DNA from: a virus | Taxonomy: Duplodnaviria > Caudoviricetes | IMG/VR virus record: IMGVR_UViG_3300033463_000095 | Coordinates: 1-64,000 of that record | DNA: 64,000 nucleotides | Direction: 5' to 3' (one strand) | Part shown: positions 5,242 to 63,934 of the stretch, in pieces | Position numbering within the stretch: position 1 is the first letter of the stretch | Layout of the letters: every line of letters starts with the position of its first letter | Made by a program: the position numbers and the translations under genes | Notes under the pieces: model-generated | Database searches by the model: none | What the model saw: the letters and a program-made list of their open reading frames with translations, nothing else | What the model was told of the DNA's origin: nothing

Positions 5242-6336
5242 ATGCTTAATACGGAAACTAAAAAATTAGATTATACATTAAAAGATGCGGCAGCTCGTCA
5301 GGAATTCGTAACCGAGCTTTTACCCACTTTAACGAAAGAACAATTAAATAGTAAAAAATATATGGAAATATTGGCTGATTATATTGTTTCCGCAATGACT
5401 CCAGAAGAAAAAAAAGAAAAATTAATCTTAACTGACAATAGACTAGTAACTGTAAATAAAAGAGAAACTTCATTTCAAAGTCTTGTTGATAAATTTGAAA
5501 ATGGCGAAGATGGTCTTTGAAATTTAATGATAGAAAATGATAAAAATGTATTATTAACTCATAAAAAAGAAATAACTAAAAAAGATTTAGAAGAAATAAA
5601 AGATTTAAATGATTTAAAAGAAAGTATTGCAATAATAGAAAAAATGGAAAAGGCGGCAACCGGTAAGAAAAAATTTAAGTTAAAAAAATGATTAATTGAA
5701 ATGCATCAAGAACAATATATTATAAAAGATGCTTACCGCAATGCGGTAACACCTACTTCCGCAGCAATTAAAAATTTAACAAAAGCAAGATTAAATGAAG
5801 AAATAACTATAGATGAAGATGGTGAACCTCATAGTAATTGTTTAATAGATTTATTTAACCCAACTCATATTAGTGCATTACTATGTAATTATTCTGCACT
5901 TAAAGAAGATTGTTGAGGTAATTTTTCTTGAGACTTTTGGTATTTAATGGAAGACTTAGATGTTTTAGTAGATGACACATTAAGAGAAAAATATCCATTA
6001 TATTATAAATTATTAATTTATAAAATAGATGGTAGAAGTAATGCAGAAATCCAAGAAGCATTAAACGATGAATTTGGTATTACTTATACTGTCGAATATT
6101 TATCTTCTTTATGGCGTAATAAAATACCTAAATTAATTGCGGAAAAAGCTAAAGAAAATTATTTAATTTGATATTATACTTATAAAGAATATGGTAAATG
6201 AAAAAGATGTTCTAAATGTGGTCAAGTCAAATTAGCTCATAACAGATTTTTTTCAAAAAATAACACTTCTAAAGACCATTTTTACAGTATATGTAAAGAA
6301 TGTAGAAACAAGAAGAATAAAGAAGGTGTTAATTAA
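5242..6336 (+). CDS. 364-aa protein with HTH-like segment and C-terminal Zn ribbon; candidate regulator
   Basis: Joins ORF fragments 5242, 5701 and 5947 through 6 in-frame TGA. Contains GRSNAEIQEALNDEFGITYTVEYLSSLWRNKI and ends in CSKC...CKEC. Confidence 0.7.
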
Positions 6337-7550
6337 TGGCTACTAAATACTGTCCAAAATGTAATAAAACTATGGATGCTGATACTAAATTTTATCAAAA
6401 ACGTAATGGGGAAAAAACTGATTTATGTAAAGAATGTTTAACTATGCATATTGATAATTTTAATCCTGATACTTATGTATGAATATTAAAAGATTTAGAT
6501 TTCCCTTATGTTCCAGAAGAATGAGATGTTATTAGAAATAGAGCTTTTGAAACTGCAAGACAAAAAGGAAAAGAATTAAATGGAATGTCTGTTTTTGGTA
6601 AATATTTGGCGAAAATGCGTATTAAACAATTTTTAGGCAAAGGTTGAGCTGATTCAGAGAAGATACAAGAAGAATATGAAACCAGAAGAAAACAGAATGC
6701 AGCGGCTAAGGAACAACATGAAGCTATTCTAAAAGGTCAGTTCGAGAATGGAGAAATAACTGAAGCTCAATATAGAACTTTAATGAGTGTTGAAGAACAA
6801 GCTAAAGAGTATGCGGCAGCCCCTGTGGTAGCTCCAGAAGAGGTTGAGAATCCTTATGGTGATGGAAGTTCATTTATGGACGATGCTGCAATTAAAAGTC
6901 TTGGTGCAGACTTGACTGAAGAAGATAAAACTTATTTATTAATGAAATGAGGTAAATATTATCATCCTTGAGAGTGAGTTGAATTAGAAAAGAAATATAA
7001 TGAAATGATGCAATCATTTGATATTCAAGATGCTGATACAATGAATACGCTTATTCTTATTTGTAAAACTGATTTAAAAATGAATCAAGCTCTTGATACT
7101 GCAGATATTGAAGGATATCAAAAATTATCAAAGGTAAGTAATGATTTACGTAAATCTGCAAAATTCACTGCTGCTCAAAACAAAGAACAAAATGCAGATT
7201 TTGTAGATTCTATTGGTGAATTGGTTGCTTATTGTGAAAAAAATGGTGGAATTATTCCCAAATATGAAATTACAACGCCTCAAGATATAATAGATACTGT
7301 TATTCAAGATTTAAAAAATTATACAAAAGATTTAATTTATGAAGATAAATCATTAGCAAAACAAATCGAAGATTATTTAAAAAAGGTTGAAATTGCAAAA
7401 CAAATGAAAATAGATTTAAAAGAAGCAAAAGAAGCTGGTTTAGATGCTGTTGAAATAAAAGATGAAGATTTAGTTGATTATGAAGATTCTTTACAAGAGC
7501 AAAGAGAACAAGATGCGGAAATGCTTAATGAAAGTCTTGGTGATGAATAA
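6336..7550 (+). CDS. 404-aa protein with N-terminal Zn finger, upstream of TerL (possible terminase small subunit)
   Basis: MATKYCPKC...CKEC; open under code 4 into the 7005-7550 fragment; ATG overlaps the previous TAA. Function inferred from position only. Confidence 0.6.
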
Positions 7551-9304
7551 TGGCACTTAAAGATTTGTTAGAGTTATCAGAATCTAGAGGGTTGTTTGGT
7601 AGAAAACAAGGAATGTCTCAAGAGCGATTAGATGCGCAAATGGATAATTTAAGAAAAAAGATTGCTTTTTATAGAGAATATCCTGATTTGTTTGTTGATG
7701 ATATAAAAGGTCCAGATTGCACTTTTAAATTTTATTTTTATCAACGTGTATTTTTACGTATAGTAATGCGACATAGATATGTTTATGCCACATTTCCGCG
7801 TGCTTATTCTAAATCATTTTTATCTATGATGGCTTTAATGATTAGATGTATATTATATCCTAATTCACATTTGTTTGTAACCACAGGTGGAAAGGAACAG
7901 GCGGCAAGTATTACAGTTGCAAAAATTGAAGAAATATGTCATCTTATTCCTGCTCTTGAAGGAGAAATAAATTGGGAAAGAGGAGTTTCTAAAAAATCAA
8001 AAAATGATGTTAAATATATATTTAAAAATGGTTCTGTTATAGATATACTTGCGGCGACCGAAAGATCACGTGGTCAACGTCGTACTGGTGGTGTAATGGA
8101 AGAGTGTGTTTCTATTGATCAAACTATGCTTAATGAAGTTATTATTCCAACTACCAACGTCGATAGACGACTTCCAGATGGAAGTAGAGATCCTAATGAG
8201 GTTGTTAACAAATCACAAGTTTATATTACTACAGCAGGTTGAAAAAATTCATTTGCTTTTTCTAAATTAATTGAACTTTTAATACGTTCAATACTAGATC
8301 CAAATGAAGTAATGATTATGGGTGGTACTTATGAAACACCTGTAAAAGAAGGATTATTAAATGAAGATTTTGTAGATGAATTAAAACTAAGTGGCACCTA
8401 TCAAGAAGATTCATTTGATAGAGAATATCGAAGTAAATGAAGTGGAGATGTAGAAAATGCTTTTTATTCATCTGAAGAATTTGATAAGCATAGAGTTTTA
8501 CTTCAACCCGAATATGAATTTAGTGGCAGAAGTTCAAAAAATGCATATTATGTTCTTGGAGTGGATGTTGGACGTACAGGATGTACTACTGAAGTGTGTG
8601 TTTTTAAAGTAACACCTCAACCACAAGGAACTGCTTTAAAAAGTTTAGTTAATGTATATACTTATGATGCAGAACATTTTGAAAAACAAGCTATTAATAT
8701 AAAGAAACTTTATTATAAATATAAAGCAAGAATAGTATCAATCGATGCTAATGGTCTTGGTGTGGGTCTTGTAGATTTTATGACTGTTGCACAGACAGAT
8801 CCTGAATCTGGAGATGTATTACCTGCATTTGGAGTTGAAGGCGGAACCGCAGAAGATGTTATGGATCAGTATAAAAAGGTTAAAGGTCCAGATGTTGAAG
8901 AAAATGCTTTATATTTAATCAAAGCAAATGCACCTATTAACACAGAAGCATATGCTTATACAAGAAATCAAATGTCTAGTGGTAAGGTTAAATTTTTAAT
9001 AGATGAACAACAAGCAAAAATAAAATTAATGGATACAAAAGTTGGTCAAAATATGAGTCCAGATAAAAGAAATGAATATTTACAACCTTTCCAATTAACT
9101 TCAATACTAAAGGCGCAAATGCTTAATTTAGTTGAAGAGACTCAAGGTGTTAATATTATTTTAAAACAATCTAATAAAGGAATTAAGAAAGATAAATTTT
9201 CTGCTTTTATCTATGGTTTATATTATATAAAACAAGAAGAAGATAAAAAGAAAAAAAGAAAAGGAAGAAGTATTGCTGATATGTTATTTTACAGTGGTAA
9301 TTAA
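7550..9304 (+). CDS. terL: Terminase large subunit (584 aa)
   Basis: Walker A-like PRAYSKS, GGKEQA, Walker B-like GVMEEC, ITTAG, nuclease motifs VLGVDVGR, IDANGLG and KKDKFSA; two in-frame TGA. Confidence 0.9.
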
Positions 9305-9308
9305 TTTT

Positions 9309-62275: not shown

Positions 62276-63211
62276 TTATCTCCTATGAGATAATTTTTTA
62301 TTTTCAAAAGTTTCTAGTTCTGGAGTTATTTTATATACATGACCTTTATCATCAAAATCTACATCAACTCATCAACATGATTTATCATTAGCTAAACCCA
62401 TGCTGCGGCAATATGGTGTTTGGTCTTCTAAACAGCTAGTTTGAAAACAATGTGTTTTATCTTGTTTCATAAAAAAACTTTGATGAATATGACCTGTCTG
62501 TAAAATATCAGGTTTTTCATTAGATGGAATTGAGTCTAAATACTTTTGTAGTTTATATGACTTAGCATATGCACTTCCACCACTTCCATGAAATAATCTT
62601 ATTTTTAATTTTCCTATTTTTAAATCTGTTACATCAGGACCTAAATAAACGATATCATCTCTTTCTTTAGCTATTGATTTTAAAATTTCGCTACCTGCAG
62701 ACTTATACCATCAATCATCATGATTTCCTTGAATGGCATAGGTTTTTCCACTAAATTTAGGATATTTATCTATACAATATTGAACTTGTCCTTCATAAGA
62801 AGGTTCGCGCAATTCATATACTTGCTCTGGTCTATTACTTCTGCCATCTGTAAAATCTCCAGAATGAAGTATATGCTTAATTCCTTTATCTTCTGCTTTT
62901 GAATATAAATATTTTAATATGTCTACTCTATCATATTTACTTCCTAAATGAGTATCGCTAATCAATAATAATTTTAAATGTTCTAAATTATTAGGTAATT
63001 CATATATATCATTATTTTTTTGTGGACTTTTTCTAATAATAATTTCTTCGTTTGTAAAATCAATATTATATCCTTGTTGATTCATTAGAGTAATTAATCC
63101 TATAACTTCATAATCTTTTAATTCTAATTCCTCACATATTTTTAAAAATGATTTTTTCTTTTTAGCCATAGAATAAATTTTATCACATAATTCTTTTCTT
63201 TTTTCTTCCAT
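62276..63211 (-). CDS. Calcineurin-like metallophosphoesterase with N-terminal HTH-like region (311 aa)
   Basis: ISDTHLG, HSGDFTDG, GNHDDW(TGA)W, LFHG, TGHIH. Confidence 0.85.
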
Positions 63212-63282
63212 ATAAAATTTCCTCCTATTATAAAAATTTTATAACAAAAAAGAGATTAAGTAAAAAATACTTAACCTCCTTT

Positions 63283-63444
63283 TTATTTTATATTTCTACC
63301 TAATAAGCCTGTATAAAGAAAAGTAGCTCCAAACCATTGTAAAGATGTTGCTATATCTCCTTTAGTTATTATATTAACTATTAAACTTCCAAAAGCACCT
63401 GTAATCATAAGCGCTGGGAAAAATACTTTTAAAAAATTAGTCAT
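63283..63444 (-). CDS. 53-aa two-TM membrane protein
   Basis: MTNFLKVFFPALMITGAFGSLIVNI...LQWFGATFLYTGLLGRNIK; start overlaps the nrdG stop. Confidence 0.55.
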   Translation of the reverse strand: MTNFLKVFFPALMITGAFGSLIVNIITKGDIATSLQWFGATFLYTGLLGRNIK

Positions 63445-63934
63445 TCTCTACCTCTCCTGTTTTCATATTATATACATTTTGATTACGACTTCCGCGCCAT
63501 TTTAGTGTAATATCACGCTCTTCAAGAATAAAAGGACCTTCAATTAAATAATCTATATTTTTTAATATATAATCTGTATTATTTTCTTTTTGTAAATTTT
63601 CAAGAGTATATCCTGTTCAAATAACAATTTTAATATCAGGATATTTATCTTTTGCTTTGTATATAAGTTGTTTACAAAATTCTCTTTTATTATCAGTATC
63701 TAATGGTTCTCCACCAAGAATACTTAAATTCCTTTGTATCCCATTTGCGGCAATGGCATTTATAATAGTCTGAATTAATTCATCCTCATACCAAACATCT
63801 CCGCCTTCAAAATCTCATGCTTCTGGATTATGACATCCTTTACAGTGAAAATGACAACCTTGAAGGAATAAACTAACGCTCACTCCTTCTCCATTGACGA
63901 AATCATTGCCATTAATACCTGCGACCCTAATCAT
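63437..63934 (-). CDS. nrdG: Anaerobic ribonucleotide reductase activating enzyme (radical SAM)
   Basis: DFVNGEG...LFLQGCHFHCKGCHNPEAW(TGA)DF...LGGEP...WTGY...GSRNQ. Confidence 0.93.

What the first reader, a model, noticed from the sequence alone, without database searches (positions are those of the whole stretch)
5242..63934. TGA is reassigned to Trp across the phage (genetic code 4)
Seen: the fragment junctions I translated are in-frame TGA, and read-through gives full-length TerL, portal, a 2621-aa TMP, a 2785-aa adhesin, ThyX and NrdG, all ending in TAA/TAG. Direct internal proof comes from the adhesin repeats, where equivalent positions alternate: FT-TGA-SKY (33816) versus FI-TGG-SKY (34194). 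NrdG has TGA (63815-63817) at the conserved NPExW. Known: stop-codon-recoded gut phages exist (TGA to Trp, TAG to Gln). No suppressor tRNA or release factor is present in this window.
Basis: partly seen in the sequence, partly recalled or inferred. Interest (0 to 1): 0.8.

Follow-up and report, generated by a model that had tools for sequence, protein, structure and literature searches.

The report
Gut phage reading TGA as tryptophan
This 72-kb piece, about half of a ~135-kb gut or rumen phage genome, really does read the stop codon TGA as tryptophan, but this is a published kind of phage recoding and the tRNA that does the decoding lies in the part of the genome that was not assembled.

Summary
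Reading TGA as sense raises coding density from 0.76 to 0.91 and mean gene length from 132 to 288 aa. There are 154 in-frame TGA against 120 TGG, and every gene ends in TAA or TAG. With X placed at each TGA, relatives cover 60 TGA sites: Trp is the majority residue at 34, Tyr or Phe at 6, Gly at none. Our own TGG sites behave the same way. Repeats inside the giant tail protein swap TGA and TGG at equivalent positions.

The record is a CheckV-49% fragment, collinear with a complete 135.8-kb relative. That relative's tRNA array lies outside the stretch we hold. The TerL clade contains standard-code, TGA-recoded and TAG-recoded members, which matches the published 'Agate'-type recoded phages (Borges et al.).

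A peptidoglycan hydrolase gene and two standard-code Bacilli MAGs that hold related contigs point to a walled, standard-code host. This is indirect.

TGA-recoded relatives carry a five-arm tRNA-Trp(UCA) with a second, CCA-bearing anticodon arm. The structure has strong covariation support. This scan has already reported that tRNA on other genomes, and it is not in this window.

Verdict: real, a new member of a known kind, modest interest.

The parts
5242..63934 (.). Region in which most genes need TGA read as Trp. The whole 72-kb record has 154 in-frame TGA against 120 TGG.
1..5103 (-). Block of small, mostly leftward genes with few TGA (5 TGA, 11 TGG; three of the five TGA lie in one doubtful 72-aa ORF). 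Probably early genes that can be read by the standard code.
5242..6336 (+). Sigma-factor-like protein (phrog_5767) with 6 TGA.
7550..9304 (+). Large terminase. TGA at aa 231 and 297, each opposite W in 21-29 relatives.
9787..11427 (+). Portal protein. TGA at aa 113 and 256, opposite W in 25-27 relatives.
11514..15193 (+). Four head genes, including the likely major capsid protein (13460-14506). They have no TGA; all 9 Trp codons are TGG.
21529..29394 (+). Tape measure protein, 2621 aa, 17 TGA and 7 TGG.
29472..37844 (+). Giant repeat protein, 2790 aa from a TTG start, 27 TGA and 14 TGG, no family match. Repeats of about 126-129 aa interchange TGA and TGG.
33816..33818 (+). TGA at aa 1449 of the giant protein. 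Its paralogous position, 34194-34196 (aa 1575), is TGG.
37866..40265 (+). Baseplate or tail protein (Gp10_C, DUF859), 12 TGA. W lies opposite aa 705 and 795 in 15-19 unrelated standard-code phages.
40697..45738 (+). Two large genes (872 and 726 aa) with no TGA and 14 TGG. No family match.
45901..46917 (+). Peptidoglycan hydrolase with an M23 domain like that of phi29 gp13 (PDB 3csq, E 1.7e-15). 2 TGA and 7 TGG. Implies a host with a cell wall.
57803..58474 (-). All 6 Trp codons are TGA. The identity is not confirmed.
58458..59051 (-). Thymidine kinase (PF00265), 1 TGA.
63437..63934 (-). NrdG activase. TGA at 63815-63817 (CHNPEAW; W in PFL activase 3c8f) and at 63617-63619 (IWTGY).

Best explanation
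The window is the first 64 kb of a 72-kb fragment, about half of a roughly 135-kb tailed phage. Its TerL belongs to the lineage that includes SPbeta-like phages, phAss-1 and, by description, the 'Agate' recoded phages.

The phage reads UGA as tryptophan. TGA is its majority Trp codon (56%), and only TAA and TAG end genes.

Most likely mechanism (inferred):
- The host is a low-GC, cell-walled Bacillota that uses the standard code and has RF2.
- The phage brings its own tRNA-Trp with anticodon UCA, in a large tRNA array that lies in the unassembled half of the genome.
- The host's TrpRS charges this tRNA, and it competes with RF2 at UGA.
- Genes that must be translated before or without efficient UGA decoding keep TGG. 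These are the small early block and the highest-copy head genes.
- Low-copy virion genes and nucleotide-metabolism genes use TGA freely.

Shown: the meaning of TGA, the uneven use of TGA, the incompleteness of the record, and the presence of tRNA(UCA) in relatives.

Inferred: the host's code, the presence of the tRNA in this particular phage, and the reason for the uneven use.
For: TGA means Trp:
- Coding density and gene length rise under table 4.
- Trp codons make up 1.23% of codons if TGA counts, and only 0.54% if it does not.
- With X at each TGA, 60 sites are covered by relatives. W is the majority residue at 34, Y or F at 6, G at 0. At our TGG control sites W is the majority at 25 of 36.
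- Standard-code relatives show W in 104 of 151 cells and G in 4.
- Internal repeats interchange TGA and TGG.
- PFL activase has W opposite the NrdG TGA.
- Both TGA codons in the DNA polymerase lie at W in a relative.

The record is a fragment:
- CheckV completeness is 49%.
- It is collinear with 25.9-106.5 kb of a complete 135,791-bp relative that has terminal repeats.
- That relative has 26 tRNA genes at 0.1-11.1 kb and 134.6-135.7 kb, including tRNA(UCA) next to tRNA-Trp(CCA).

Relatives carry a tRNA(UCA): seen. None of the genomes searched, including the complete relative, encodes a TrpRS or a release factor.

Pointers to a standard-code host:
- The same TerL clade holds standard-code, TGA-only and TAG-only members, and none mixes TGA with TAG.
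- The phage encodes a peptidoglycan hydrolase.
- Two 1.1-Mb Bacilli MAGs that hold related contigs have an uninterrupted rpoB, genes ending in TGA, and RF2.
- Only 55% of genes carry TGA, against about 90% reported for phages that share their host's code.

Literature:
- 10.1101/2025.10.30.685624 reports that 13 phage tRNA(UCA) all inserted Trp in E. coli extract.
Against: - No tRNA, release factor or TrpRS is present in the 72 kb held, so the decoder of this particular phage has not been seen.
- The relatives with long contigs that carry tRNA(UCA) share only 66-69% TerL identity with it.
- The closest TGA-recoded relatives (80-84% TerL identity) are short contigs. They hold only an odd 88-nt tRNA-like element.
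- Host evidence is indirect. Binning of a phage contig into a MAG is weak evidence of a host.
- TGA also occurs in the DNA polymerase, NrdD, NrdG and thymidine kinase genes. UGA decoding is therefore needed for replication functions too, which fits a simple 'late genes only' switch poorly.
- The base after in-frame TGA shows no significant bias that would indicate avoidance of RF2 (p = 0.06).
Confidence: 0.75

Rival explanations
1. The phage simply shares the code of a host that already reads UGA as Trp (a Mycoplasmatales-type code 4 organism). There is then no code conflict and no need for a phage suppressor.
For: - TGA is the majority Trp codon and is never a stop.
- TGA occurs in replication and nucleotide-metabolism genes as well as late genes.
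- No suppressor tRNA is found in the record.
- GC is 28%, which is typical of Mollicutes.
Against: - The phage encodes an M23 peptidoglycan hydrolase, whereas the known free-living code-4 bacteria are wall-less (plus general knowledge).
- Only 55% of genes carry TGA. The two largest TGA-free genes, the capsid genes and the early block use TGG only.
- Sister phages at 66-80% TerL identity use the standard code or TAG=Gln instead.
- Relatives carry their own tRNA(UCA).
- Two Bacilli MAGs holding related contigs use the standard code and have RF2.
Confidence: 0.13
2. UGA is read as Trp without a dedicated suppressor tRNA. Either the host tRNA-Trp(CCA) reads it by near-cognate pairing, helped by a phage factor that weakens RF2, or a modification of tRNA-Trp does the job.
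For: - No tRNA(UCA) is seen in this record.
- Borges et al. detected suppressor tRNAs in only 35% of code-4 phage genomes.
Against: - The record is half a genome, and the complete collinear relative has the tRNA in the missing part.
- 154 sense TGA codons, up to 27 in one gene, would need very efficient read-through.
- No release-factor-related gene was found.
Confidence: 0.08
3. TGA stands for another residue (Gly as in code 25, Cys, or selenocysteine), or the TGA codons are breaks in decayed genes or assembly errors.
For: ARAGORN labels the relatives' tRNA(UCA) as 'SeC', but this follows from the anticodon alone.
Against: - Gly is the majority residue at 0 of 55 informative sites, and Cys appears in 1 cell.
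- There are 154 in-frame TGA but no in-frame TAA or TAG.
- Homology continues across every TGA that was aligned.
- The relatives' tRNA has the tRNA-Trp acceptor stem and discriminator G.
Confidence: 0.02

Closest known systems
TGA-to-Trp recoded gut phages, especially the ~127-kb 'Agate' clade (Borges et al., bioRxiv 10.1101/2021.08.26.457843; later Nat Microbiol 2022)
   Same: - In-frame TGA read as Trp in a large, low-GC phage from animal or human gut material.
[quoted passage not shown]
- TGA concentrated in structural genes.
- A homing-endonuclease ORF inside an early gene that uses TGA. Here the HNH ORF inside the DNA polymerase has 2 TGA and 0 TGG.
- Suppressor tRNA(UCA) in relatives, with no phage TrpRS or release factor.
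   Different: - Membership of the named clade could not be tested, because no Agate sequence was available.
- This phage is more heavily recoded than the published picture. 56% of Trp codons are TGA, and the DNA polymerase, NrdD, NrdG and thymidine kinase genes also carry TGA. In the Agate maps the replication genes are in standard code.
phAss-1 / proposed Phassvirus (Babkin et al. 2023, PMC10607447; NCBI 'Caudoviricetes code 15 clade')
   Same: - Same TerL lineage (44% identity).
- ~136-kb genome with a large tRNA array and stop-codon recoding.
   Different: phAss-1 recodes TAG to Gln and uses ordinary 75-77-nt tRNA(CUA). This phage recodes TGA to Trp.
Phages of alternative-code hosts (code 25 phages of Absconditabacteria; Mycoplasma and Spiroplasma phages)
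   Same: TGA is a sense codon throughout the coding regions.
   Different: - In those phages the code matches the host's, and about 90% of genes carry TGA.
- Here 55% of genes carry TGA, the residue is Trp and not Gly, and a peptidoglycan hydrolase and the standard-code candidate hosts argue against a code-4 host.

Membership tests
Stop-codon-recoded phage, TGA read as Trp (use of genetic code 4) | In-frame TGA in conserved genes, with a clear gain in coding density and ORF length when TGA is read as sense | tested here: met
   Coding 0.76 to 0.91 and mean gene 132 to 288 aa. TAG or TAA as sense gains less.
Stop-codon-recoded phage, TGA read as Trp (use of genetic code 4) | Homologues have Trp opposite TGA | tested here: met
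   W is the majority residue at 34 of 55 informative sites, G at 0. TGG control sites give the same profile. Internal repeats and PFL activase agree.
Stop-codon-recoded phage, TGA read as Trp (use of genetic code 4) | Genes terminate only at the remaining stop codons | tested here: met
   57 TAA and 16 TAG, with no internal TAA or TAG. True by construction for TGA, but homology runs across every aligned TGA, including one 6 codons before a stop.
Stop-codon-recoded phage, TGA read as Trp (use of genetic code 4) | Phage-encoded suppressor tRNA with anticodon UCA | tested here: inconclusive
   None in the 72-kb record. The record is 49% complete, and collinear relatives carry one in the missing region.
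Stop-codon-recoded phage, TGA read as Trp (use of genetic code 4) | The host uses the standard code, so the codes conflict | tested here: inconclusive
   Indirect only: a peptidoglycan hydrolase, two standard-code Bacilli MAGs with RF2 that hold related contigs, and mixed codes among sister phages.
'Agate' clade of Borges et al. | Placement within the clade on a terminase tree with its published members | not testable with these tools
   No Agate sequences were available. Only the description could be compared.
'Agate' clade of Borges et al. | Genome well over 100 kb; codes 11, 15 and 4 within one clade; a TGA-rich intron endonuclease in an early gene | tested here: met
   Complete collinear relative of 135.8 kb. 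Three mutually exclusive coding states in the TerL clade. HNH ORF inside the DNA polymerase with 2 TGA and 0 TGG.
Phage of a code-4 (Mollicutes-type) host | Near-uniform use of TGA across genes, and no need to cut peptidoglycan | tested here: not met
   40 of 73 genes carry TGA, and use differs strongly by module (p = 1e-8). An M23 peptidoglycan hydrolase is present.
Genetic code 25 (TGA = Gly) phages of Absconditabacteria/Gracilibacteria | Gly opposite TGA in homologues | tested here: not met
   Gly appears in 11 of about 800 aligned cells and is the majority at no site.

The most novel reading that the evidence does not exclude
The missing half of this phage carries the five-arm tRNA-Trp(UCA) seen in its relatives. 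In that tRNA the UCA arm decodes UGA. A second, conserved hairpin bearing the normal U-CCA-A anticodon loop sits where a long variable arm would be. It serves as the handle by which a standard-code host's TrpRS still charges the tRNA, since TrpRS normally reads the CCA anticodon.

I found no paper describing such a tRNA. This scan has already reported it on four other genomes, so it is not new to the scan, and it is not in this window.
Probability: 0.25. Interest if true: 0.75.

Novelty: new member of a known kind. Interest (0 to 1): 0.33.

Why it matters
- For annotation: this record and its relatives must be called with table 4. Under table 11 the terminase, portal, tape measure and most other genes fall into fragments.
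- For biology: it adds a heavily recoded member to a phage clade in which standard, TGA=Trp and TAG=Gln codes alternate over short distances. At least 6 code changes are needed among 20 TerL sequences. Such a clade is good material for studying how a virus changes code.
- The uneven use of TGA gives a testable picture of limited or timed UGA decoding. TGA is absent from the capsid genes, the early block and two large tail genes, and present even in the polymerase.
- The wider lead is the two-anticodon-arm tRNA-Trp(UCA) in relatives. It bears on how a host synthetase is made to charge a suppressor.

Tried and rejected
- tRNA and RNA scans of the whole 72-kb record (ARAGORN linear and circular, Rfam at gathering score) found nothing.
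- Searches for release-factor (PF00472) and TrpRS (PF00579) domains in this record and four relatives found nothing.
- ThyX: Pfam, PHROGs and PDB searches of 57803-58474 gave no significant match, only 10.8 bits to Thy1.
- Some close relatives looked as if both TGA and TAG were sense, because ORF coverage rose with TAA as the only stop. In-frame counts within homologous genes show each relative uses one or the other, never both, so this was an artefact of AT-rich sequence.
- The base after sense TGA, compared with TGG and with background, shows no significant avoidance of strong RF2 contexts (p about 0.06).
- A whole-protein self-BLAST of the giant protein gave no off-diagonal hits. A windowed search recovered the repeats.
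- An exact-pattern scan for the first five-arm tRNA found only its two source contigs. Looser patterns were needed.
- NrdD alignments to solved structures were uninformative for its two TGA, which lie opposite variable positions.

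
Full report
**What the record is.**
- The window is bases 1-64000 of a single 72,016-bp virus record.
- The record has no terminal repeat and no N. GC is about 28%.
- CheckV rates it 49% complete.

**Checking the observation.**
- Under table 11 the window has 31 ORFs of 150 aa or more. Under table 4 it has 45, and many are fusions of table-11 fragments.
- A greedy non-overlapping gene call over the whole record gives coding fraction 0.76 and mean length 132 aa for table 11. 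With TGA as sense it gives 0.912 and 288 aa. With TAG as sense it gives 0.80, and with TAA as sense 0.89 with short genes.
- The quoted coordinates are exact. 33816 is TGA and 34194 is TGG in the same frame, within near-identical peptide contexts. On the minus strand, 63815-63817 is TGA in the CHNPEAW motif of NrdG.
- There are 154 in-frame TGA and 120 TGG. No in-frame TAA or TAG occurs, and genes end in TAA (57) or TAG (16).
- Trp would make up 0.54% of codons from TGG alone, and 1.23% with TGA included.

**What TGA stands for.** Every TGA was replaced by X, so that alignments could not be drawn towards W.
- Proteins were compared with 35 related IMG/VR loci found through TerL, one GenBank gut contig, phAss-1, and further loci found through two tail proteins.
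- Sixty TGA sites are covered. Of the 55 with a non-TGA residue opposite, the majority residue is W at 34, Y or F at 6, and G at none.
- Our own TGG sites give W at 25 of 36.
- In relatives that use the standard code, the cells opposite our TGA are W 104, Y 16, G 4.
- Codon by codon, TGG (412) and TGA (111) dominate opposite our TGA.
- Inside the 2790-aa giant protein, repeats of about 126-129 aa place TGA (17) or TGG (11) opposite a TGA in 28 of 43 paralogous pairs.
- A distant standard-code homologue, pyruvate formate-lyase activase, has W opposite the NrdG TGA.
- Both TGA codons in the DNA polymerase exons lie at W in a relative.
- Gly (code 25), Cys, Sec, decayed genes and assembly error are therefore excluded for practical purposes.

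**Gene content.**
- Confirmed by family searches: TerL, portal, a PhageMin_Tail tape measure protein, a Gp10_C/DUF859 tail protein, NrdG, NrdD, thymidine kinase, dUTPase, peptide deformylase, two glycosyltransferases, a RuvC-like resolvase and a family-A-type DNA polymerase.
- NrdD and the polymerase are each interrupted by an HNH homing-endonuclease ORF.
- The 'ThyX' label for 57803-58474 is not supported. There is no Pfam, PHROG or PDB match apart from a 10.8-bit partial Thy1 hit.
- The 'adhesin' has no family match.

**TGA use is uneven.**
- 40 of 73 genes carry TGA, and 36 of 53 genes of at least 100 aa do.
- The TGA share of Trp codons by block is:

| Block | TGA share of Trp codons |
|---|---|
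| TMP, giant-protein and baseplate block | 0.71 |
| Nucleotide-metabolism block | 0.71 |
| Packaging and neck block | 0.66 |
| Small leftward genes, 1-5103 | 0.31 |
| NrdD and polymerase end of the record | 0.22 |
| Two large genes, 40697-45738 (14 TGG) | 0.00 |
| Head genes, 11514-15193 (9 TGG) | 0.00 |

- The differences between modules are significant (chi-square p = 1e-8; gene-level p = 9e-7).
- The pattern fits limited or timed UGA decoding. It is not a clean split between early (standard code) and late (recoded) genes, because the polymerase, NrdD, NrdG and thymidine kinase genes all contain TGA.

**Why no tRNA is seen.**
- The record has no tRNA, no Rfam family, no release-factor domain and no class-Ib synthetase domain.
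- It is collinear, gene by gene, with 25.9-106.5 kb of a complete relative of 135,791 bp that has 127-bp terminal repeats and 67-69% TerL identity.
- That relative has 26 tRNA genes at 0.1-11.1 kb and 134.6-135.7 kb, outside the part that matches our record.
- Other relatives of 98-127 kb (66-84% complete) likewise carry arrays of 5-25 tRNAs at their contig ends.
- The decoder is therefore most probably in the unassembled half.

**The relatives' decoder.**
- TGA-recoded relatives carry a 95-98-nt tRNA with a tRNA-Trp-like acceptor stem, discriminator G and an encoded CCA end. It has two consecutive 5-bp hairpins. The first has loop CUUCAAA (anticodon UCA). The second has loop C/G-U-CCA-AA and sits where a long variable arm would be.
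- RNAfold gives a five-arm cloverleaf. Infernal aligns the UCA arm as the anticodon arm and treats the second arm as a 23-nt insert (61.6 bits).
- A gapped-pattern scan of IMG/VR found 44 matches. 24 are such tRNAs with near-perfect helices. The other 20 are plain chance matches without helices.
- On 20 distinct sequences, 99% of cells pair and 17 of 26 pairs show changes on both sides. Partners slid by 1-3 columns pair at most 49% of the time.
- A second scan that did not constrain the second arm found 13 more five-arm copies, all keeping U-CCA in that loop. It also found 8 ordinary 74-75-nt tRNA(UCA).
- Nine of 21 carrier contigs have a TerL related to ours, and six of those nine have in-frame TGA in TerL.
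- TAG-recoded relatives use ordinary-length tRNA(CUA).
- In the complete relative, the first arm has the same stem as the neighbouring normal tRNA-Trp(CCA). The second arm is therefore the added part.
- No phage TrpRS is present, so the host enzyme must charge the tRNA. My inference is that the retained CCA loop helps the host TrpRS to recognise it.
- Three literature searches found no description of such a tRNA.
- This scan has already reported it, with the same idea, on four other genomes. It is not part of this window.

**Host.**
- 45901-46917 matches the M23 peptidoglycan-hydrolase domain of phi29 gp13 (3csq, E 1.7e-15). This points to a walled host.
- A TGA-recoded relative (66% TerL identity) sits in a 1.1-Mb 'Bacilli bacterium' MAG. 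A relative of the hydrolase gene sits in another.
- Both MAGs have an uninterrupted rpoB and an RF2 above the curated cut-off. One was also checked for genes ending in TGA, and has them.
- Binning is weak evidence of a host, so a standard-code host is the more likely reading but is not shown.

**Code changes in the clade.**
- Within homologous genes, each relative has in-frame TGA only, TAG only, or neither.
- On a TerL tree the window pairs with a TGA-recoded contig (support 99/94). The pair lies inside a fully supported five-member clade that also holds two standard-code contigs and one TAG-recoded contig.
- The tree needs at least 6 code changes among 20 sequences.
- This matches the published account of the Agate clade: ~127-kb TGA-recoded genomes, all three codes in one clade, and an intron endonuclease rich in TGA.
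- A 2025 preprint found that 13 of 13 tested phage tRNA(UCA) insert Trp in E. coli extract.

**Verdict.** The finding is correct, and the genome should be annotated with table 4. It is a new and heavily recoded member of a known kind of phage. The features that would make it more than that, its decoder and its host, are not in the sequence available.

Noticed in passing
Relatives only: L196:8971-9066 (+), L050:918-1014 (-), L054:1371-1467 (-), L169:1654-1748 (-); alignment A2: Five-arm tRNA-Trp(UCA) with a second hairpin that carries the normal U-CCA-A anticodon loop. 33 copies were found (about 29 distinct) in large TGA-recoded phage contigs. Covariation is strong in all five helices. Already reported by this scan on four other genomes.
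   Followed up: yes
L048:317-600 (record IMGVR_UViG_3300045988_162592): One TGA-recoded relative keeps only the 3' half of the five-arm tRNA (second arm, T arm and acceptor 3' strand). The 5' half is replaced by unrelated sequence.
   Followed up: partly
L050:844-914 (-), L054:1297-1367 (-), L048:321-391 (-); G018 693-761: Directly beside the five-arm tRNA lies a conserved 69-71-nt tRNA-like gene with an abnormal anticodon loop. It lacks U33. ARAGORN calls it 'Asn(att)', or an undetermined tRNA with a 4-base anticodon. ARAGORN also calls a 424-nt 'tmRNA' next to it in several relatives.
   Followed up: no
L166:1501-1588 and L167:1501-1588 (closest TGA-recoded relatives, about 6 kb upstream of TerL): An 88-nt element scores 40.6 bits with the Rfam tRNA model, but ARAGORN rejects it. 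It has a 6-bp stem with a 3-nt loop where the anticodon arm should be. No counterpart is found in our record by blastn.
   Followed up: partly
L001:3927-7177 (genome 63927-67177) and L001:7282-11811 (genome 67282-71811): NrdD and the DNA polymerase are each split in two by an HNH homing-endonuclease ORF. In the complete relative the two NrdD parts are nearly adjacent. No group I intron model reached the Rfam threshold.
   Followed up: partly
window 40697-45738: Two large genes (872 and 726 aa) have no TGA at all (14 TGG), no family match, and no counterpart in the complete relative. They may be recently acquired tail or receptor-binding genes from a standard-code source.
   Followed up: partly
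window 61350-61802 (-): A phage-encoded peptide deformylase (phrog_2890) that contains no TGA.
   Followed up: no
G018 (L218-L224), complete relative of 135,791 bp: This relative carries the five-arm tRNA(UCA) but is only lightly recoded. Its structural genes have almost no TGA, and coding rises only from 0.86 to 0.92 under table 4. It may represent an early stage of code change.
   Followed up: partly
L021 (IMGVR_UViG_3300032167_000002): A TAG-recoded relative lies in a 402-kb 'viral' contig, far larger than its relatives. It could be a chimera or a host-linked contig, and so a possible host lead.
   Followed up: no
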